From the sequence record PP180002: 52,961 nt of DNA; one strand, written 5' to 3'. Positions 7,360 through 39,424 of this stretch are shown here, piece after piece. Each line of letters starts with the position of its first letter. Position 1 is the stretch's first letter. This DNA is from Escherichia phage mEp013. The notes under the pieces were generated by a model. It was not told the origin of the DNA. It saw only the letters and a list, made by a program, of their open reading frames with translations, and made no database searches. Both the position numbers and the translations under genes were made by a program.

Positions 7360-8358
7360 TCAAAGAGCGCCAGCGCGTGTATCACGTAGCGTTTTTGGTT
7401 TAAGCAGGAAATCAAGTGTCGCAGTAAAGCCATTGCCGAAGTAAAAATCTGAAGCCGTGTTTTTGAACGTTTCGAAGTAGGCAACAAAGCCGTTAATGCT
7501 TTTATCTTTCAGGTAGTCAGTGAACGCATAGATCTTTCGTTCAAGATCCCGATCCAGTTCAGCAGGTGGCAACAGGCCATCAAACGTGATGTTAAACTCT
7601 TCCACCACATCGGCAGCGCTTACAGTAGCTGTAACTCTTCGCCATTGTTCAGCCTTTGCCCGGTATTCATCAAAGCGGCTTACCCTGGCGATCTTTATCG
7701 GTTCCGGTTTAAACGACCATGTTTCCGCTATCCAGTCGATAACCATGATCAAATCTTCTTCAGTATATGCGCCTCGTGTTTTTGTTTTCTTCAGTAGGTT
7801 AACAAAGTATTTTTTCTCCTTATGCTTGCTATTAAACTTGTTGTTATAGTGATCGAGTACGCGCGACGCTGCCAAATCAGCCGCCCGATCTTCTTCGCTG
7901 ATAGACTCGTCTTTTTCCAATACACGAAGTGTATTGTTTTTAATGTTCTCTTTACTGGTTATATATGACTGGTTAGGGTGACTCTGTGACACTACCCCCG
8001 GTGACTCTGTGTCACTACCCTGGTGACTCTGTGACACTACCCCCGGTGTCACAGTGACACTACCATGTAATGACGGGAGGACTATTACATAGAAATTACT
8101 AGTTTGCTCTTTTCCTCCGATCAAGTATCTTGGTTGTTTAATCAACAACCCTTTTTCACAAAGTGAGTCTACAGCCCTCATAGCTGTTCTTTTGCTGATC
8201 TCACACTCCTTTGCTATGTGATGGTAAGAAGGGTAACACTCGCCGTTATCATTAGCGTTATCAGCTAACTTCAACAGCACTAGTTTGTGCATTGGGTCGC
8301 CGACCTCAGTATGGAAGACTTCTACCATTAGCCGCATACTCATAAGCATTAACCTCAT
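7360..8358 (-). CDS. replication initiator, lambda O-like (phage replisome organiser N-terminal domain) with internal iterons
   Basis: N-terminal wHTH (ISKRTAMRAVDSLCEKGLLIK); in-frame repeated GVVSQSH peptide encoded by four 22-bp iterons; start not resolved (8358 vs downstream ATGs). Confidence 0.75.
   Translation of the reverse strand: MRLMLMSMRLMVEVFHTEVGDPMHKLVLLKLADNANDNGECYPSYHHIAKECEISKRTAMRAVDSLCEKGLLIKQPRYLIGGKEQTSNFYVIVLPSLHGSVTVTPGVVSQSHQGSDTESPGVVSQSHPNQSYITSKENIKNNTLRVLEKDESISEEDRAADLAASRVLDHYNNKFNSKHKEKKYFVNLLKKTKTRGAYTEEDLIMVIDWIAETWSFKPEPIKIARVSRFDEYRAKAEQWRRVTATVSAADVVEEFNITFDGLLPPAELDRDLERKIYAFTDYLKDKSINGFVAYFETFKNTASDFYFGNGFTATLDFLLKPKTLRDTRAGAL
7977..8066. repeat. four ~22-bp iterons GGTGACTCTGTGACACTACCC inside the O-like gene (candidate origin of replication)
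   Basis: Direct repeats at 7977, 8000, 8022, 8045, each with an internal inverted GTGAC/GTCAC; mirrors lambda ori inside O. Confidence 0.7.
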
Positions 8359-22955: not shown

Positions 22956-23128
22956 ACGAGATCGAAGATGGCATCTATTTGCATAAGGTATTTGACATCG
23001 CCTATTTGGTAAGAGGCGAAGAGGTGATGATAAGGAATGAAGATGTTCCTTATTGGGAATTAAGCGACATGGATCGCGAACACATGCAAACATTGCTTGA
23101 TAACGGACTGATATACAGAACTGCGTAA
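22952..23128 (+). CDS. hypothetical protein (58 aa)
   Basis: Hand-translated; ATGA overlap with upstream gene. Confidence 0.4.
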   Translation: MNEIEDGIYLHKVFDIAYLVRGEEVMIRNEDVPYWELSDMDREHMQTLLDNGLIYRTA

Positions 23129-23136
23129 AGCCGTAT

Positions 23137-23165
23137 TTGTGGGTCGAAAACAAACAGATTAAAAT
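23137..23165 (+). promoter_or_regulatory. candidate late promoter (PR'-like), TTGTGG-17-TAAAAT
   Basis: Hexamers with 17-nt spacer ~30 nt upstream of a strong terminator and the holin gene; lambda PR'-qut-tR' style. Confidence 0.45.
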
Positions 23166-23193
23166 ATTACCTAACAATGCGAAACTGTAACTA

Positions 23194-23217
23194 CCCGGCC
23201 CCGCGCCGGGTTTTTGC
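23194..23217 (+). terminator. rho-independent terminator (tR'-like) before the lysis cassette
   Basis: CCCGGC-CCCGC-GCCGGG 6-bp GC stem followed by TTTTTGCTTT. Confidence 0.7.
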
Positions 23218-23235
23218 TTTGTTGGAGGAAAATCT

Positions 23236-23436
23236 ATGTTCGACAGAATACGGGAGGCGTGTGCGTATGTGACTGGGGCCGTAACTGCTTTTTTCGGCGC
23301 TATAACCATCAATGACGTCGCTGTTTTCGTTGGTATCTTATCAACCATAGGCACATTTGCCGTTAATTATTACTTCAAATCACAGGAGAACAAGCGAGCG
23401 CAAGAGGAACACGACGCGCGAATGGGGAATAAGTAA
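23236..23436 (+). CDS. holin
   Basis: 66 aa, two hydrophobic TM segments and charged C-terminus; directly precedes endolysin; RBS GGAGGA. Confidence 0.7.
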
Positions 23437-23437
23437 A

Positions 23438-23929
23438 ATGATTAGCCAATCGCTGAAAAACAAGATTGTTGCGGCGGCGGCTGGTGGGGCGATCGCTATT
23501 GCGGCGGTGATGATTAAGCCATTAGAGGGCGTGGAATACGATCCTTATCGTGATGTTGTTGGTGTATGGACTGTTTGCTATGGTCACACAGGAAAAGACA
23601 TTATGTTGGGCAAGACATACACGCAATCAGAATGCGATGCTTTGTTAAATAAAGATCTACACAAGACCGCAAAAGCGATTGACCCATATATCAAAGTTGA
23701 AATATCAGATTTTACCCGCGCTGCACTTTATTCATTCGCCTATAACGTAGGCGCGACCAACTTCAAAACATCAACCTTATTAAAACTGCTCAATGACGGC
23801 AAGAAATCAGAGGCGTGCGCACAGCTTAAGCGCTGGGTATACGCTGGCGGTAAGAAGTGGCAAGGCCTGGTAAACCGCCGCGAGGTTGAATATGCCGTTT
23901 GCGAATGGGGGGAAACGTGGACAAGGTGA
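23438..23929 (+). CDS. SAR endolysin (T4-lysozyme-like muramidase with signal-anchor-release domain)
   Basis: N-terminal Gly/Ala-rich weakly hydrophobic segment then lysozyme-like catalytic region ([21 protein letters not shown]); ATG at 23438 two nt after holin stop. Confidence 0.8.
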
Positions 23930-24387
23930 AGGCGTTAATTATCGCCGCTGTTGTTTGCATCATTGCCAGCCTTACCGCAGTAACATGCCATTACCAGAGT
24001 GAGGCGACAAGGTTACAGGAAGAATTAACGACCACGCAAGGCGCACTGAAAACGGCAAGTAACACTATTCAGCAGATGAAGGAGCGAAACGCCGAACTGT
24101 CAAAACTTGATAAGAGGTATCACGATGAGATTAAAGCAATCAGATCTGACATTGCCGATCTGCGCACTGGTATTGATAACGGCACTATCAGGCTGCGCGT
24201 CAACGCAATACCCGTGCGAGTGTCCGACTCCACCGGATCCGCCAGCACCATTAATGGAGCCTCCTGTAGACTCACTCCCGACGCTGAATCGGCTTATCTA
24301 TCCCTCAGAGAACAACTAAAAGAGAAAGACGCGAAGATAACCGCGCTTCAGGGATACATCAAAACGCAGTGCTTACGCAAAGAATAA
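23905..24387 (+). CDS. Rz-like i-spanin
   Basis: N-terminal TM helix then coiled-coil; overlaps endolysin 3' end; contains embedded Rz1 frame. Confidence 0.7.
24125..24319 (+). CDS. Rz1-like o-spanin lipoprotein, embedded in Rz in +1 frame
   Basis: Lipobox LSGC; proline-rich mature region ([16 protein letters not shown]). Confidence 0.7.
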   Translation: MRLKQSDLTLPICALVLITALSGCASTQYPCECPTPPDPPAPLMEPPVDSLPTLNRLIYPSENN

Positions 24388-24723
24388 CAGTGCGTTGACG
24401 TGTCGCCGTTTCCTCCAGCCAGCCATAACCGGGCCAATCCTTCCCGCGAGCGACGGCGGAAATTCAAAAACACGTAATACCGGGTAAACAACCTCATTAA
24501 CAGGTCCGGCGCTACCTGGGTAGAAGAAAGCGCCATTACTCACCTGCCATGAGTAGGAAGAGCGTTCGGATCTGTTTATCAGAGATGTTGAGCAGGTCCA
24601 GTTTTATAAAATTCCAAAAACGGTACTAACTCAGCGCCGTTTTTAGTGTTTTATAGCTGTTTTCACTCCCTGCGGTGTCCAGTTTTGCGGGGGTTATATT
24701 TTTCAGGATAGAGGAATATTCTG

Positions 24724-25257
24724 ATGGCTAAGGCTAAAGGCATTAAGTTGCCTCAATTCAAAGTCCCGCTCTTTGAGCATACAACAGTTTTCTTTTGCCC
24801 GACCCGCGAGATGTTCTATGAATTTTGCGAAAAGGCAGGGATCCCAATCGAACCTGATTTCGAACTGGCAGGAGGATTGACGCTTACTTGCACGGGTGAG
24901 AAAGGCGGTAACTTCTACGTGATCGCAGTATTCGATAATGAGTTAGGAACGCTAACACATGAAGTGGCACATGCTACATTTCATTGTTTAAGTGATGTTG
25001 GCGTAATGGCTGCAACAGATCCCAGCCATCCAGCCAATGAGACTTACGCTTATATGATTGGGCGCATGTTTGATGCTTTTTATCCTGTACTACTTGAAAG
25101 CATAGACGCACAAGCCGCAGCTATCCGGGCGCAACAAGCGCTAGAAGAAGCTGAAAGAAAAAAAGAAGCCAAAAGAAAAGCAAAAGCAAAAGCAAAAGAG
25201 CCGCCAAAAGTGGAAAAATACATTGTTGCGTGGCGTAGCCGTTATGCAATGGGATGA
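24724..25257 (+). CDS. HExxH-motif protein (putative zinc metallopeptidase-like), lysine-rich C-terminus
   Basis: HEVAH motif; KAKAKAK tail; RBS GAGGAA. Confidence 0.5.
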   Translation: MAKAKGIKLPQFKVPLFEHTTVFFCPTREMFYEFCEKAGIPIEPDFELAGGLTLTCTGEKGGNFYVIAVFDNELGTLTHEVAHATFHCLSDVGVMAATDPSHPANETYAYMIGRMFDAFYPVLLESIDAQAAAIRAQQALEEAERKKEAKRKAKAKAKEPPKVEKYIVAWRSRYAMG

Positions 25258-25729
25258 TTATTTCAGTTATAACCAAGAAACAGGGGATCTAATGTGGAAG
25301 GTGTACAGATCGCCAAACGCAAAGCCAGGTGACATTATCAGAGGGACTAAATCAAGAAACAAGCATTTGCGAGTGAATTTAAACAGAAAATGTTATCAAG
25401 TTCATTGCATTATTTGGGAAATGCACAACGGCCCAATCCCTGAAGGTTATGAGATAGACCATATTGACCATGATAGATGGAATAACAGGTTATCTAATTT
25501 GAGGCTTGTTGATGATGAAGGCAATGCGCACAATATGAGTTTGTTTAAAACCAATACAAGCGGTGTTTCCGGGGTGGGCTGGCATAGTCAACGTAAAAAA
25601 TGGCGTGCAACAATATGGCATAAATGCAAACAAGTATCACTTGGTTTGTTTGACAATTTTGATGATGCTGTAATGGCACGGCGTGAAGCCGAGATTAAAT
25701 ATGGCTATCACCCAAATCATGGTCATTAA
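25244..25729 (+). CDS. HNH endonuclease with AP2-like DNA-binding domain (terminase-associated)
   Basis: HNH motif YEIDHIDHDRWNNRLSNL; AP2-like SGVSGVGWHSQRKKWRATIW; upstream of terS. Confidence 0.75.
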   Translation: MQWDDYFSYNQETGDLMWKVYRSPNAKPGDIIRGTKSRNKHLRVNLNRKCYQVHCIIWEMHNGPIPEGYEIDHIDHDRWNNRLSNLRLVDDEGNAHNMSLFKTNTSGVSGVGWHSQRKKWRATIWHKCKQVSLGLFDNFDDAVMARREAEIKYGYHPNHGH

Positions 25730-25746
25730 TTTAAACGAGGCTGATT

Positions 25747-37216: not shown

Positions 37217-39424
37217 ATGACCACAAATGTAGGCACGATCGAATATACCGTTGATGCAAAAACCGAACGGTTGCTCGTAGCTCAACGCAAGGCGGAAGAC
37301 TCGTTTGATAAAATCGAGCAGGGCGCTAAACGTACCGATAAATCAGTTCGGTCACTTAACACCACGATAAGTAATTTATCCAAAGCTGTGAACATTGGAA
37401 TGATGGTCATGGCTGCAAAAAAATTCCTGGAGATCGCAGATAACGTGAATCTGCTACGCGCCAGGGTGACGCGACTATCGAGTGGCATTGCTGACGCAAA
37501 ATCGAATTTTGACGGGATTATTCAGATATCGAATCGCACAGGGATGAGTGTTCAAAGCACCGGGAAGCTGTGGGAAAGCCTAAAGGCCAGCCTACAGGAT
37601 ACCAGTGCGACAAGTCAGCAGGTATTGCAACTTACCGACTCGCTTCAGAAAATAGGCCGTATCGGAGGTAGCTCCTCAGATGAAATGTCAAACGCACTTC
37701 GCCAGTTAGGACAATCCCTGACGGGTGGCATTGTTCGCGCGGAAGAATACAACTCTGTGCTTGAAAACATGCCCGAAGTATGGCGACGCGTCGCTAAACA
37801 AATGGGGATCTCGATGGGTGAACTTCGCGCAAGAATGCTTGATGGTAAGCTCACCGCCGAGGATGTTACCAACTCAATTCTTGCTGGCGCAGAAGATATA
37901 GAGAAGGACTTCGCACAGCTGCCAACAACAACAGATCAGGCATTTAACGAGCTAAAAAACAACTTCGATCTGTTAATTGACACGCTAAACCAAACGCTTG
38001 GAGTGTCTGATTTGGTAGTTGCTGGTATACAGGCTGTTTCTAGTGAAGTTCAGATATTATCAGGTTGGTTTAAGTCCCTGGCGAGCGATAGCACGTCATT
38101 AACTGATAAATTGTGGCTATTGGCTGGGGCGTTCGAGGGTATAGTACCTGGGCTTAGTTTGTTCCGCTCTCAAGCGAAACAGGTTGGATGGTTTGGCGAT
38201 GGAGATCAGGAGTTTGTTTCTACGCTTCCCACGGGGCAAGCTGGTGTAAGTCGCATAACATTTAAGCCTCAACCTGGTGGTAGAGGTAAGAACGGAAAAG
38301 GTAAAAAATCCGGCAAGTCAGAAGCCGAACGCCTTGCGGAACAGGGTGTACGCGTTTCAGATACATATAACGAAGATTCAGCAGCAATGCGTAAAGCGCT
38401 TGAGTCACAAAAAGCTCTGGATGCTGCATTTAAAGCCGGGAAAATAACCATGCTTGAATACAAAGGCGCAATGAAGGGAATTGGTGATGAATTGCGCGAA
38501 ACTCTAGCAGAAATTAACGACCCGATCAATAGTCTGCAAGAAAAATGGGACAAAATGATTCCATCACTGGATCAGAAACGCGGCGAGCTGGACCCAATAC
38601 AGCAGGCGCAAAATGAATGGACCATACGCAAGCAAATGCTGGAAGATCTTGGCGCTACCGAGCAATACATGAAGGAGCAAGAAAGAGCGCACGCACAAGA
38701 AATGCTATCCCTTGAATGGGAGCGATATAAAGCACAGTCAATGAGCTACAAACTATTGGGTGATACCGTTGATGCAATGGGAGGATCTGCAACAAATGCG
38801 CTTGTGGGCCTGGTTAACGGCACTCAAAGTTGGCAGCAGGCGCTGGCTAACATTGGCAATACAATCCTTTCCTCCGTTATCGGTACACTTGTTCAAATGG
38901 GTGCTGAATGGGTTAAACAGCAATTGATCGGTGAGGCCGCCAGCGCTGCGGCAACAGCTAAAGCACTAGCCGAGGCTACTGCATTAGGATCTGCGTGGGC
39001 CACTCCTGCATACCTGGCAAACGTTGCCACGATGGGCGGAGCGGCGACCGTGGGGGGCACGAGTCTTGCCACTGGTGTGGCTGGGGCTAAGGCGCTTGGG
39101 CTTGCTGGCGCTCGTTATAACGGCGGTGCGGTTAATGGTGGCAATCTTTATAGGGTCGGGGAAGGTGGAAAAATGGAGCTGTTCACCACTACTGACGGGA
39201 AACAGTACATGATCCCCGGAGAAAACGGGCGTATCACTCCTAATCGCGACCTTGTCAGCGGTGGTGGCGTCACAATCAATAGTCCGATCACCATTAACAC
39301 TACGAATGGCTTCAGTGAGGAAGACTCAAGACGTCTGGAAGACACCATGAAGCGCGTTGCTATGGGAGTAGTTAGAGAGCAAAGTTCAAGGCCCGGAGGA
39401 CTTATCCAACCGCGAAGAAAATAA
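37217..39424 (+). CDS. H: tail tape measure protein
   Basis: 735 aa, Gly/Ala-rich C-terminal region, position before M/L/K/I/J. Confidence 0.85.
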   Translation: MTTNVGTIEYTVDAKTERLLVAQRKAEDSFDKIEQGAKRTDKSVRSLNTTISNLSKAVNIGMMVMAAKKFLEIADNVNLLRARVTRLSSGIADAKSNFDGIIQISNRTGMSVQSTGKLWESLKASLQDTSATSQQVLQLTDSLQKIGRIGGSSSDEMSNALRQLGQSLTGGIVRAEEYNSVLENMPEVWRRVAKQMGISMGELRARMLDGKLTAEDVTNSILAGAEDIEKDFAQLPTTTDQAFNELKNNFDLLIDTLNQTLGVSDLVVAGIQAVSSEVQILSGWFKSLASDSTSLTDKLWLLAGAFEGIVPGLSLFRSQAKQVGWFGDGDQEFVSTLPTGQAGVSRITFKPQPGGRGKNGKGKKSGKSEAERLAEQGVRVSDTYNEDSAAMRKALESQKALDAAFKAGKITMLEYKGAMKGIGDELRETLAEINDPINSLQEKWDKMIPSLDQKRGELDPIQQAQNEWTIRKQMLEDLGATEQYMKEQERAHAQEMLSLEWERYKAQSMSYKLLGDTVDAMGGSATNALVGLVNGTQSWQQALANIGNTILSSVIGTLVQMGAEWVKQQLIGEAASAAATAKALAEATALGSAWATPAYLANVATMGGAATVGGTSLATGVAGAKALGLAGARYNGGAVNGGNLYRVGEGGKMELFTTTDGKQYMIPGENGRITPNRDLVSGGGVTINSPITINTTNGFSEEDSRRLEDTMKRVAMGVVREQSSRPGGLIQPRRK

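What the first reader, a model, noticed from the sequence alone, without database searches (positions are those of the whole stretch)
24724..25257. HExxH-motif protein with a lysine-rich tail between lysis genes and the terminase HNH
A 177-aa product carries a single HEVAH motif and ends in a KAKAKAK-rich stretch. It sits in a slot that in other phages holds accessory genes, and could be a small metallopeptidase-like factor or a DNA-binding anti-host protein.
Basis: seen in the sequence. Interest (0 to 1): 0.45.

Follow-up and report, generated by a model that had tools for sequence, protein, structure and literature searches.

The report
Small phage zinc-protease-like protein, basic tail
This is a real, conserved late gene of a gut E. 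coli phage that most likely encodes a very small zinc-dependent protease of an uncharacterised family (also present, unannotated, in phage P22), here carrying a conserved helical stalk and lysine-rich tail; its target is unknown.

Summary
The 177-aa ORF (24724-25257, +) is real and under strong purifying selection (dN/dS about 0.06 for the domain, 0.04-0.08 for the tail). The window is an mEp021-group (mEpimmI) coliphage.

Residues 1-~130 form a compact domain belonging to PHROG 1365 (unknown function; no Pfam or NCBIfam model). The family has 608 clusters at 50% identity, nearly all stand-alone proteins of 115-140 aa. It includes P22/HK620 hkcC and phage L Orf129.

In 143 diverse members H79, E80, H83 and E106 are essentially invariant. 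The usual His-to-Glu spacing is 19-20 residues and the Glu is usually preceded by Asn: a gluzincin signature. The predicted secondary-structure order fits the zincin core. H87, which sits next to the motif, is not conserved.

The gene almost always lies on the late-operon strand between the lysis genes and the small terminase.

The tail (acidic helix, polybasic patch, short conserved end) is specific to this phage group but recurs in other lineages.

The neighbouring HNH is a roaming homing-type gene, not a terminase partner.

Verdict: probable new family of minimal zincin peptidase; substrate unknown.

The parts
24724..25257 (+). Complete CDS of the 177-aa protein (stop included); member of PHROG 1365
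   Evidence: ORF list. PHROG 1365 E 5.5e-28 over residues 1-131. dN/dS 0.04-0.08 among 35 unique alleles.
24711..24715 (+). Shine-Dalgarno-like GAGGA, 8 nt upstream of the ATG
   Evidence: Read directly from the sequence.
24724..25113 (+). Conserved globular domain (residues 1-~130). Predicted elements: strands 11-13, 21-25, 51-57 and 63-69; helices 28-38, 44-48, 74-91 and 103-134
   Evidence: AlphaFold2 with a 138-sequence alignment, pLDDT 94.9, pTM 0.87. The exhaustive profile search shows most family members consist of this domain only.
24958..24972 (+). HEVAH motif (H79, E80, H83): proposed two zinc ligands and the catalytic base, in the middle of helix 74-91
   Evidence: H79 142/143, E80 141/143, H83 141/143 conserved. 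Helix assignment.
25036..25053 (+). N105-E106-T107-Y108-A109-Y110 at the start of the following long helix. E106 is the proposed third zinc ligand. Y110 is the proposed transition-state or ligand-sphere residue
   Evidence: E106 142/143, Y110 138/143, N105 96/143. His2-to-Glu spacing is 19-20 in most members and 23 here.
25078..25152 (+). Acidic/neutral helical stalk (residues 119-143, net -3) that continues the Glu helix out of the domain
   Evidence: Full-length model: single helix 106-157, pLDDT >=90 to about residue 150. Charge count. In relatives this segment varies in length by indels.
25153..25212 (+). Polybasic segment ERKKEAKRKAKAKAKEPPKV (residues 144-163, net +7)
   Evidence: Charge count. 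The equivalent KKGKRKPKAK segment in 47 relatives has dN/dS 0.08.
25213..25254 (+). C-terminal end EKYIVAWRSRYAMG, alignable with ...EALVPRVMSFKRG / ...EEYVPRIARYKRG of relatives; low model confidence
   Evidence: Alignments. pLDDT about 50.
24616..24654 (+). Terminator-like hairpin (A-tract, 9-bp+ stem, U-run) in the leader between Rz and the gene
   Evidence: RNA fold of 24590-24730, z = -2.7. A terminator is annotated at the equivalent place in mEp021.
24667..24703 (+). Second terminator-like hairpin (9-bp G+C-rich stem, then UUAUAUUUUU) about 20 nt before the RBS
   Evidence: RNA fold.
25080..25746 (+). Replacement cassette relative to HNH-less relatives: codes tail residues ~120-177 plus the HNH gene. 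Relatives have about 293 nt here
   Evidence: blastn breakpoints against mEp010, mEp554, mEp021 and IMG/VR relatives.
25244..25729 (+). HNH_3 + AP2 endonuclease gene whose start overlaps the last 14 nt of the CDS; homing-type, not part of the finding's protein
   Evidence: Pfam PF13392 E 6e-20 and AP2. Absent at this site in 50 related loci, with paralogs at other sites.

Best explanation
The gene encodes a minimal, stand-alone zinc metallohydrolase of the zincin (gluzincin-type) kind, most probably a peptidase.

Proposed mechanism (inferred from the motifs, not shown):
- H79 and H83, one turn apart on helix 74-91, and E106, at the start of the next helix, hold a Zn2+ ion.
- E80 activates the catalytic water.
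- Y110, one turn after E106 and equally invariant, lies in the ligand sphere and may stabilise the transition state.
- The substrate peptide probably lies against the edge of the small beta-sheet (strands 51-57 / 63-69) that precedes the HExxH helix.

The protein has no signal peptide and is made from the late operon, downstream of two terminator-like hairpins that an antiterminated late transcript would read through. It should therefore act in the cytoplasm late in infection, around the time of DNA packaging and lysis.

In the mEp021 phage group the Glu helix continues as an acidic stalk. The stalk carries a polybasic patch and a short conserved C-terminal peptide. I infer that this tail either tethers the enzyme to a polyanion, most likely DNA, or folds back to regulate the acidic catalytic domain.

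Shown: the gene is real and under selection; the four residues are invariant; the fold is confidently predicted; the genomic position is conserved.

Inferred: metal binding, peptidase activity, the role of the tail, and the substrate (unknown).
For: - The ORF is real with a good RBS.
- Selection is purifying: dN/dS 0.06 (domain), 0.044 (stalk), 0.08 (basic end) among 35 alleles.
- The family is large: 608 clusters with E<=1e-3, nearly all 115-140 aa stand-alone. All 138 tested members hit PHROG 1365.
- H79, E80, H83 and E106 are kept in 141-142 of 143 representatives that share only 20-40% identity; Y110 in 138/143.
- His2-to-Glu spacing is 19-20 in 132 of 147 members. From established knowledge this matches thermolysin (20) and M1 peptidases (19), whose Glu is also preceded by Asn.
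- The AlphaFold2 domain model has pLDDT 94.9. Its order is strand, helix, two strands, HExxH helix, Glu helix. That is the zincin MPTase core as defined in PMC5512222.
- All nine sub-threshold PDB profile hits are zincin peptidases, aligned through the HExxH helix and preceding strands.
- 19 of 138 members give weak Pfam SprT-like hits, and others hit DUF4344 or M48.
- hhalign against a PF18818 (ArdC) profile gives P = 6e-5, probability 65%, in the correct register.
- One source names a 62%-identical homologue 'PolyVal Metallopeptidase superfamily domain'.
- Late-operon position: 27/32 distant loci have lysis genes upstream and 28/32 have terS downstream.
- Basic tails recur in unrelated lineages of the family.
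Against: - The window protein itself hits no Pfam, NCBIfam or PDB sequence.
- Profile-profile similarity to ArdC covers only 21 columns, and the greedy alignment does not pair the two Glu helices.
- hhalign probability is 4% against SprT and 1% against PF18894.
- I could not inspect model coordinates, so convergence of H79/H83/E106 on one site is unverified.
- HExxH+E sites also occur in non-peptidase hydrolases such as YgjP-like proteins.
- No experimental data exist for any member.
- Most family members lack the tail, so any tail-based mechanism cannot be general.
Confidence: 0.55

Rival explanations
1. Virion-delivered or DNA-tethered effector. The enzyme is made late so that it can ride on the phage DNA via the polybasic tail, or be packed into the head. 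It would act in the next host at injection by cleaving a host defence or DNA-bound protein, as predicted for zincin MPTase domains of polyvalent proteins and shown genetically for ArdC.
For: - Late-operon position just before the packaging genes.
- A polybasic tail under purifying selection, with similar tails in other lineages.
- Weak profile link to the ArdC/PolyVal MPTase and a source name to that effect.
- Distant members directly follow a Pfam Tad2-like gene inside an accessory block with two ParB_N genes.
- PMC5512222 proposes such roles for MPTase domains.
Against: - Most members are bare 120-aa domains without a tail.
- The mEp021 virion mass-spectrometry study does not mention the orthologue in its text or held supplements.
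- No padloc or anti-defence family match.
- The Tad2-like adjacency is seen in one related pair of loci only.
- Membership in PF18818 is not met.
Confidence: 0.15
2. Lysis accessory enzyme. The cytoplasmic 14-20 kDa hydrolase is released to the periplasm through the holin lesion together with the endolysin. There it cuts a peptide link in the envelope (peptidoglycan stem or cross-link, Lpp tether, or an outer-membrane protein).
For: - The gene lies immediately after Rz/Rz1 in this window and in 27 of 32 distant loci.
- It has no signal peptide, like canonical endolysins.
- A phage-derived metzincin that sensitises Listeria to lysins is a precedent for proteases affecting the envelope (PMC8235301, listed; abstract only read).
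Against: - Two terminator-like hairpins separate it from the lysis cassette.
- In P22 the intact copy lies in the immI region, far from the lysis genes.
- In the Ralstonia-type phages it lies in a ParB/thioredoxin/Tad2-like block.
- There is no similarity to known cell-wall peptidase families.
- A polybasic tail has no obvious role there.
Confidence: 0.12
3. Metal-dependent hydrolase that is not a peptidase, or a metal-binding regulator or scaffold that has kept the zincin site for structure or for binding a partner peptide without cleaving it.
For: - No significant structural match to any peptidase.
- No hit to a peptidase family above threshold.
- Zincin-like folds with HExxH are known in non-peptidase enzymes. 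E. coli SprT itself gives a weak YgjP-like hit.
Against: - The invariant catalytic-base Glu (E80) in 141/143 members argues for chemistry, not mere metal binding.
- All weak profile hits are to peptidases.
Confidence: 0.12
4. Prohead maturation protease or scaffold-associated protease of this phage group. The basic tail would serve as the signal that takes it into the procapsid.
For: - No recognisable head protease in the head module: Mu-F-like protein, a 428-aa phrog_760 protein with no Pfam hit, decoration protein and major capsid protein.
- The gene is conserved in all mEp021-group relatives examined.
- C-terminal targeting tails are known for HK97-type proteases (established knowledge).
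Against: - Close family members occur in P22-like phages. By established knowledge these do not proteolytically process their coat protein and use a recycled scaffold.
- There the gene sits in moron slots and is variably placed.
- The gene lies outside the head module, upstream of terS.
- Most members have no tail.
Confidence: 0.04
5. Chance motif in a protein with an unrelated function.
For: About 0.5 HExxH motifs are expected by chance in this window's ORF products, and a second one occurs in an 82-aa ORF product.
Against: H79/E80/H83/E106 are invariant in 141-142 of 143 representatives that otherwise share 20-40% identity. They are the most conserved positions of the family.
Confidence: 0.02

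Closest known systems
Zincin-like MPTase domain of polyvalent proteins / ArdC C-terminal domain (Pfam PF18818, MPTase-PolyVal; Iyer et al. 2017, PMC5512222)
   Same: - Phage or mobile-element origin.
- HExxH on one helix and a Glu on the next; ArdC E228/E229 lie 23-24 residues after the second His, against 23 here.
- Three-stranded sheet plus N-terminal helix plus two C-terminal helices.
- hhalign P = 6e-5 in the correct register.
- One database source uses this name for a 62%-identical homologue.
   Different: - No PF18818 hit for this protein or any of 138 relatives at E<=0.1, whereas ArdC scores 1e-48.
- Only 21 columns align.
- It is a stand-alone 120-aa protein, not a domain of a large multidomain protein.
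- There is no ArdC-N or other fused domain.
Classical gluzincins (thermolysin M4, M1 aminopeptidases, M3 oligopeptidases)
   Same: - HExxH followed 19-20 residues later by (N)E on the next helix.
   Different: - These are enzymes several times larger, with further subdomains.
- There is no sequence-family hit.
SprT-like / Spartan / Wss1 DNA-dependent metalloproteases (Pfam PF10263)
   Same: - A small zincin with HExxH.
- 19 of 138 family members give weak PF10263 hits (best E 1e-4).
- A protease joined to a basic, presumably DNA-binding segment is the design principle of this group (established knowledge).
   Different: - The third ligand here is an invariant Glu, not a His; H87 is not conserved.
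- There is no zinc ribbon.
- The window protein has no PF10263 hit.
- hhalign against E. coli SprT gives probability 4%.
Minigluzincins (proabylysin, projannalysin; about 100-aa soluble gluzincin scaffolds) - recalled from memory, not tested here
   Same: - About the same size, with a minimal sheet plus backing helix plus HExxH helix plus Glu helix.
- A C-terminal tail that regulates the active site is described for them, which offers a model for the tail here.
   Different: - They are archaeal rather than phage proteins.
PF18894 'Putative phage metallopeptidase'
   Same: A small phage HExxH protein in the same pre-terminase slot. In loci L070 and L077 it lies directly after the family gene.
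   Different: It is unrelated beyond the motif: hhalign probability 1%. It is about 210 aa.

Membership tests
PHROG 1365 (phage protein family of unknown function) | Significant match to the family profile over its whole length | tested here: met
   E 5.5e-28, residues 1-131 against profile 3-124 of 127. All 138 relatives also match.
Zincin superfamily, gluzincin type | HExxH motif located in an alpha-helix and conserved in the family | tested here: met
   HEVAH 79-83 lies inside predicted helix 74-91. Conserved in 141-142 of 143 members.
Zincin superfamily, gluzincin type | Third metal ligand is a Glu on the next helix, about 18-25 residues after the second His | tested here: met
   E106 is conserved in 142/143 members and lies at the start of helix 103-134. 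The spacing is 23 here and 19-20 in most members. This is met at the level of sequence and predicted secondary structure only.
Zincin superfamily, gluzincin type | Core fold: small mixed beta-sheet with a backing helix, then the active-site helix and the Glu helix | tested here: inconclusive
   [not shown]
Zincin superfamily, gluzincin type | The three ligands converge on one metal site; the protein binds Zn2+ and hydrolyses peptide bonds | not testable with these tools
MPTase-PolyVal (Pfam PF18818; ArdC C-terminal domain) | Match to the Pfam model above its gathering score | tested here: not met
   No hit at E<=1 for the window protein or at E<=0.1 for 138 relatives. The positive control ArdC scores 164.8 bits.
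MPTase-PolyVal (Pfam PF18818; ArdC C-terminal domain) | Profile-profile homology over the domain | tested here: inconclusive
   hhalign of a 138-sequence profile against a 120-sequence profile gives probability 65% and P 6e-5. Only 21 columns align (strand plus HExxH helix), and the Glu helices are not paired in greedy mode.
SprT-like (Pfam PF10263) | Match to the Pfam model above the gathering score (25.6 bits) | tested here: not met
   There is no hit for the window protein. 19 of 138 relatives have sub-threshold hits, best E 1e-4. The control E. coli SprT scores 82.5 bits.
SprT-like (Pfam PF10263) | Third His ligand after HExxH; often a C-terminal zinc ribbon | tested here: not met
   H87 is not conserved in the family, while E106 is invariant. 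There is no Zn_ribbon_SprT hit. hhalign against SprT gives probability 4%.
ImmA/IrrE antirepressor metalloproteases (Pfam PF06114) | Match to the family model; gene next to its cognate repressor | tested here: not met
   PF06114 does not appear among the hits of 138 members at E<=0.1. The neighbours are lysis and packaging genes, not a repressor.
Metzincins (astacin-like) | Extended HExxHxxGxxH motif with a third His, and a Met-turn | tested here: not met
   The motif here is HEVAHATFHC, with no G at +3 after the second His, and H87 is not conserved. Profile hits to myroilysin and BMP1 reach only E 0.015-0.5.
PF18894 Putative phage metallopeptidase | Match to the Pfam model or profile homology | tested here: not met
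   No hit. hhalign probability 1.4% against a genuine member.
Terminase-associated HNH (claim about the neighbouring gene) | An HNH gene conserved next to the terminase genes in related phages | tested here: not met
   The gene is an HNH_3+AP2 type. It is absent at this site in 50 related loci. HNH_3 genes sit at varying sites (endolysin/Rz, family gene/terS, terS/terL) in relatives. The segment is a cassette replacement.

The most novel reading that the evidence does not exclude
The family is a new class of stand-alone, late-expressed phage protease. In the mEp021 group a polybasic tail loads it onto DNA. It would either strip or cleave DNA-bound host proteins (nucleoid proteins, or defence nucleases and sensors) from the genome as it is packaged. 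Alternatively it travels with the DNA into the next cell as an injected anti-defence protease. In effect this would be a minimal, single-domain counterpart of ArdC or Spartan, with a fold divergent enough to have no recognisable solved homologue.
Probability: 0.12. Interest if true: 0.7.

Novelty: new variant of a known kind. Interest (0 to 1): 0.4.

Why it matters
If the prediction holds, a widespread family gains a testable biochemical function. The family has 608 sequence clusters and is present in the model phages P22, HK620, L and epsilon34, and in a prevalent group of human-gut coliphages. The proposed function is a roughly 120-residue zinc peptidase, which would be among the smallest known.

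Because P22 genetics are easy, deleting or mutating hkcC could quickly show what a late-expressed cytoplasmic protease does for a temperate phage: lysis, packaging, or counter-defence.

The lack of any significant structural neighbour means an experimental structure would also define a new minimal zincin scaffold.

It would not overturn current concepts, since small zincin domains in phages are already an established theme.

Tried and rejected
1. Direct family assignment failed. Pfam, NCBIfam, PADLOC and PDB sequence searches with the protein and with profiles gave nothing above threshold.

3. SprT membership is rejected: no hit, a different third ligand, hhalign probability 4%.

4. ArdC/PolyVal membership is rejected at family level; only a motif-region profile similarity remains.

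5. A relationship to PF18894 is rejected.

6. H87 as a third or fourth ligand (HExxHxxxH) is rejected because it is not conserved.

7. 'Terminase HNH' is rejected in favour of a roaming homing-type HNH.

8. Strict linkage of the window's tail variant to the HNH is rejected, because locus L096 has the same tail type with no adjacent HNH.

9. The search for fused domains in longer family members found none.

10. The literature has no functional data on hkcC, Orf129 or mEp021 gp49. The mEp021 paper and its held supplements do not mention the gene.

11. The tail alone matches no solved structure.

12. There is no Rfam element in 23000-27000, and no sigma-70-like promoter was found directly upstream.

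13. The search for related loci with the deep alignment failed for lack of a conserved stretch, so the 5-sequence alignment was used instead.
Full report
**Observation.** The window has an ATG-initiated ORF at 24724-25257 on the + strand that encodes 177 residues. A GAGGA Shine-Dalgarno precedes it by 8 nt. It carries one HEVAH motif (residues 79-83). It also has a lysine-rich stretch, ERKKEAKRKAKAKAKEPPKV (residues 144-163, net +7), followed by 14 further residues (EKYIVAWRSRYAMG). Upstream are a holin, an endolysin and Rz with an embedded Rz1-like ORF. Downstream are an HNH_3+AP2 protein, an Sf6-type small terminase and the large terminase. A bare HExxH is not remarkable: about 0.5 are expected among this window's ORF products and two occur.

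**Source and reality of the gene.** The window is about 93% identical over this region to the mEp010/mEp044/mEp554/mEp021 coliphages. These are the 'mEpimmI' group of Nus-dependent temperate siphoviruses from human faeces (PMC11893012). Orthologues are annotated only as hypothetical (mEp021_49, mEp010_78, mEp554_72). Among 35 distinct alleles from 47 IMG/VR relatives plus the window, dN/dS is 0.06 for residues 1-118, 0.044 for the helical segment 119-140 and 0.08 for the last 26 codons. Both the domain and the tail are thus coding and constrained. The short antisense ORFs over the region are best regarded as spurious.

**The family.** Residues 1-131 match PHROG 1365 (unknown function) at E 5.5e-28. 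There is no Pfam, NCBIfam, PADLOC or PDB-sequence match.
- tblastn finds 35-43% identical relatives in 70-odd P22-like phages. These include phage L Orf129, ST64T gp49, epsilon34 gp70, HK620 hkcC, and an intact but unannotated 119-codon ORF in P22 between sieA and mnt.
- The epsilon34 genome paper lists hkcC as of unknown function (PMC2629481).
- An exhaustive profile search of 1.84 billion representatives finds 608 clusters at E<=1e-3. Nearly all are 115-140 residues long, that is, the bare domain.
- They are mostly metagenomic, but the family reaches a Ralstonia pickettii prophage.
- Longer members have no recognisable fused domain.

**Catalytic signature.** In an alignment of 143 representatives sharing 20-40% identity, the most conserved positions are H79 (142/143), E80 (141), H83 (141) and E106 (142). 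G51 (141) and Y110 (138) follow, and N105 is the commonest residue before E106. H87, which makes the window's motif look like HExxHxxxH, is Tyr or Asp in the P22-type relatives and is not conserved. The spacing from the second His to the Glu is 19 or 20 in 132 of 147 members, and 23 in the window because of a three-residue insertion. From established knowledge, HExxH followed 19-20 residues later by (N)E on the next helix is the gluzincin signature. Thermolysin has HExxH...NExxSD and M1 aminopeptidases have HExxH-x18-E.

**Structure.**
- AlphaFold2 with 18 close sequences gave pLDDT 81. The tail end was poorly defined, and a single long helix ran from 106 to 157.
- With 138 diverse sequences the domain model reached pLDDT 94.9 and pTM 0.87.
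- The order of elements is: strands 11-13 and 21-25, helix 28-38, a short helix 44-48, strands 51-57 and 63-69, helix 74-91 carrying HExxH, and helix 103-134 starting at E106.
- This is the arrangement Iyer et al. give for the zincin-like MPTase core: a three-stranded sheet, an N-terminal helix, an HExxH helix and a Glu helix (PMC5512222).
- I could not access coordinates to test whether the three ligands converge.

**Profile evidence.** All weak signals point the same way.
- The nine PDB sequences reached by the family profile at E<=10 are all zincin peptidases (myroilysin E 0.015, BMP1/tolloid about 0.5, peptidyl-Lys metalloendopeptidase 1.2). They align through the strands and the HExxH helix.
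- 19 of 138 members give sub-threshold Pfam SprT-like hits, and others hit DUF4344 'putative metallopeptidase' or M48.
- One member hits a PHROG annotated 'peptidase'.
- A database source names a 62%-identical homologue 'PolyVal Metallopeptidase superfamily domain'.
- I tested the two named candidates directly. E. coli SprT (confirmed PF10263) gives hhalign probability 4%.
- R388 ArdC (confirmed PF18818) gives 28% as a single sequence. As a 120-sequence PF18818 profile it gives 65% with P = 6e-5, but over only 21 columns (strand plus HExxH). The greedy alignment does not pair the Glu helices, although ArdC's conserved E228/E229 lie 23-24 residues after its second His.
- The link is therefore at superfamily level. 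Membership in PF18818, PF10263, PF06114 or PF18894 is not met.

**Genomic position.** In 32 loci with 41-47% identical relatives, the gene is on the same strand as its neighbours. A recognised endolysin or spanin lies within five genes upstream in 27, a small terminase within five genes downstream in 28, and both in 23. The exceptions are mostly contig ends or artefacts of my crude gene calling.
- Frequent neighbours are a P22 orf80-like protein (PHROG 571) and a Dec-type decoration protein.
- In P22 the intact copy lies instead in the immI region, still in the direction of the late operon.
- In a Ralstonia prophage and a metagenomic relative the gene overlaps the end of a Pfam Tad2-like gene. 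There it sits in a block of two ParB_N genes, an ATPase and a thioredoxin, a few genes before the large terminase.
- In two loci a different small putative metallopeptidase (PF18894) follows it directly.
- In the window, two terminator-like hairpins with U-runs (24616-24654 and 24667-24703) lie between Rz and the gene, matching a terminator annotated in mEp021. No sigma-70-like promoter was found directly upstream. Expression by antiterminated late transcription is therefore the likely mode (inference).

**The tail.** Only the mEp021 group (and its 50-62% identical relatives P0118 and P0119) has the 50-70 residue extension.
- It has a fixed design. The Glu helix continues as an acidic A/E/Q-rich stalk whose length varies by indels, giving proteins of 180, 183, 184, 190 and 194 residues.
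- Next comes a polybasic patch (KKGKRKPKAK, or KRKAKAKAK in the window). Last is a short end...EALVPRVMSFKRG...EEYVPRIARYKRG, or ...EKYIVAWRSRYAMG in the window.
- It is under purifying selection.
- Other, distant lineages have their own charged Lys-rich C-terminal helices (P0223, P0154, P0204, P0255), so a basic appendage is a recurrent solution in this family.
- The tail matches nothing in the PDB.
- Its role is inferred. One option is tethering the acidic (net -7) catalytic domain to a polyanion such as DNA, the design principle of SprT/Spartan-type proteases. The other is folding back as a regulatory peptide, as described for minigluzincins (recalled, not tested).

**The HNH neighbour.**
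- The window differs from HNH-less relatives by a replacement of about 293 nt with 667 nt (25080-25746). The replacement encodes tail residues ~120-177 plus the HNH gene, whose ATG at 25244 overlaps the end of the CDS.
- No HNH homologue lies at this site in any of 50 related loci; 35-49% identical paralogs lie elsewhere.
- Contigs carrying the window-type tail have HNH_3 genes after the gene and between endolysin and Rz. In another contig the only one is between terS and terL, with no HNH next to the gene.
- This is the behaviour of free-standing homing endonucleases. The window's tail is an allelic variant that may have spread with one, but it is not strictly linked to it.

**Mechanism and rivals.** The best-supported explanation is a minimal gluzincin-type zinc hydrolase, most probably a peptidase, made late and acting in the cytoplasm. 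I put about 0.55 on that statement as a whole, and higher on 'metal-dependent hydrolase of the zincin kind'. The substrate is unknown. The rivals are:
- a DNA-tethered or virion-delivered anti-host protease (0.15);
- a lysis accessory enzyme released through the holin (0.12);
- a non-peptidase hydrolase or non-catalytic metal-binding protein (0.12);
- a prohead protease (0.04). No other head protease is recognisable, but the family's presence as a movable accessory gene in P22-like phages, which do not process their coat protein, argues against it;
- a chance motif (0.02), excluded by conservation.

**Novelty.** The family is catalogued (PHROG 1365) and one automatic annotation already calls a homologue a metallopeptidase-superfamily domain, so the idea is not new. 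However, no curated family model, no structure and no experiment exist. The fold has no significant solved neighbour, and the stalk-plus-polybasic-tail architecture is undescribed. I rate it a new variant of a known kind, of moderate interest (0.4). It is easily testable through P22 hkcC.

Noticed in passing
window 25244-25729 (+); cassette 25080-25746: The HNH_3+AP2 endonuclease gene is part of a 667-nt segment that replaces about 293 nt of the relatives. Related phages carry HNH_3 paralogs at different intergenic sites: endolysin/Rz, family gene/terS and terS/terL. It looks like a family of free-standing homing endonucleases moving around the lysis-packaging junction.
   Followed up: partly
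L003 3001-3360 (P22 NC_002371.2 13861-14220, + strand): Phage P22 has an intact 119-codon member of this family (HECAH...NETYCY) between sieA and mnt. It is not annotated as a CDS in the RefSeq record and overlaps the annotated sieA promoter. A second, two-piece (possibly frameshifted) match lies at 37376-37668 of AF217253, between Rz and gene 3.
   Followed up: partly
L089 5739-6429 (Ralstonia pickettii CP104381.1) and L087 5729-6570: Distant family members overlap the stop of a Pfam PF11195 'Tad2-like' gene. They sit in a conserved block of ParB_N, ParB_N, ABC/AAA ATPase, thioredoxin, Tad2-like, family gene and a 300-aa unknown protein, just upstream of the large terminase. This may be an anti-defence or accessory island.
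   Followed up: no
L070 about 7390-8030 and L077 5909-6541: A different small HExxH protein (Pfam PF18894 'Putative phage metallopeptidase', E 2e-43) lies directly downstream of the family gene and before terS. Two unrelated putative metallopeptidases therefore share the same slot.
   Followed up: partly
window 24616-24654 and 24667-24703 (+): Two terminator-like hairpins with U-runs lie in the 337-nt gap between Rz and the gene (fold z = -2.7). The simple terminator scan missed them because their loops exceed 8 nt. Relatives have a 61-nt variable segment at 24537-24597.
   Followed up: partly
window 24107-24319 (+), inside Rz (23899-24387): An embedded +1-frame ORF has a lipobox-like LSGCAS and a proline-rich C-terminal part, as expected for an Rz1 o-spanin.
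   Followed up: no
window 30700-31986 (+): A 428-aa head-module protein (PHROG 760, unknown function, no Pfam hit) lies between the Mu-F-like head morphogenesis gene and the decoration gene. No head maturation protease or scaffold is recognisable in this module.
   Followed up: partly
L007-L053, family gene codons about 140-165: The acidic stalk of the tail varies in length among mEp021-group alleles (proteins of 180, 183, 184, 190 and 194 aa) through insertion or deletion of A/E/Q-rich segments such as EKATDAAEQAVEQA. The basic end stays nearly invariant.
   Followed up: partly
window 49859-50107 (-): The only other HExxH in the window's ORF products is HELDH at residue 63 of an 82-aa ORF product. 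It was not examined.
   Followed up: no
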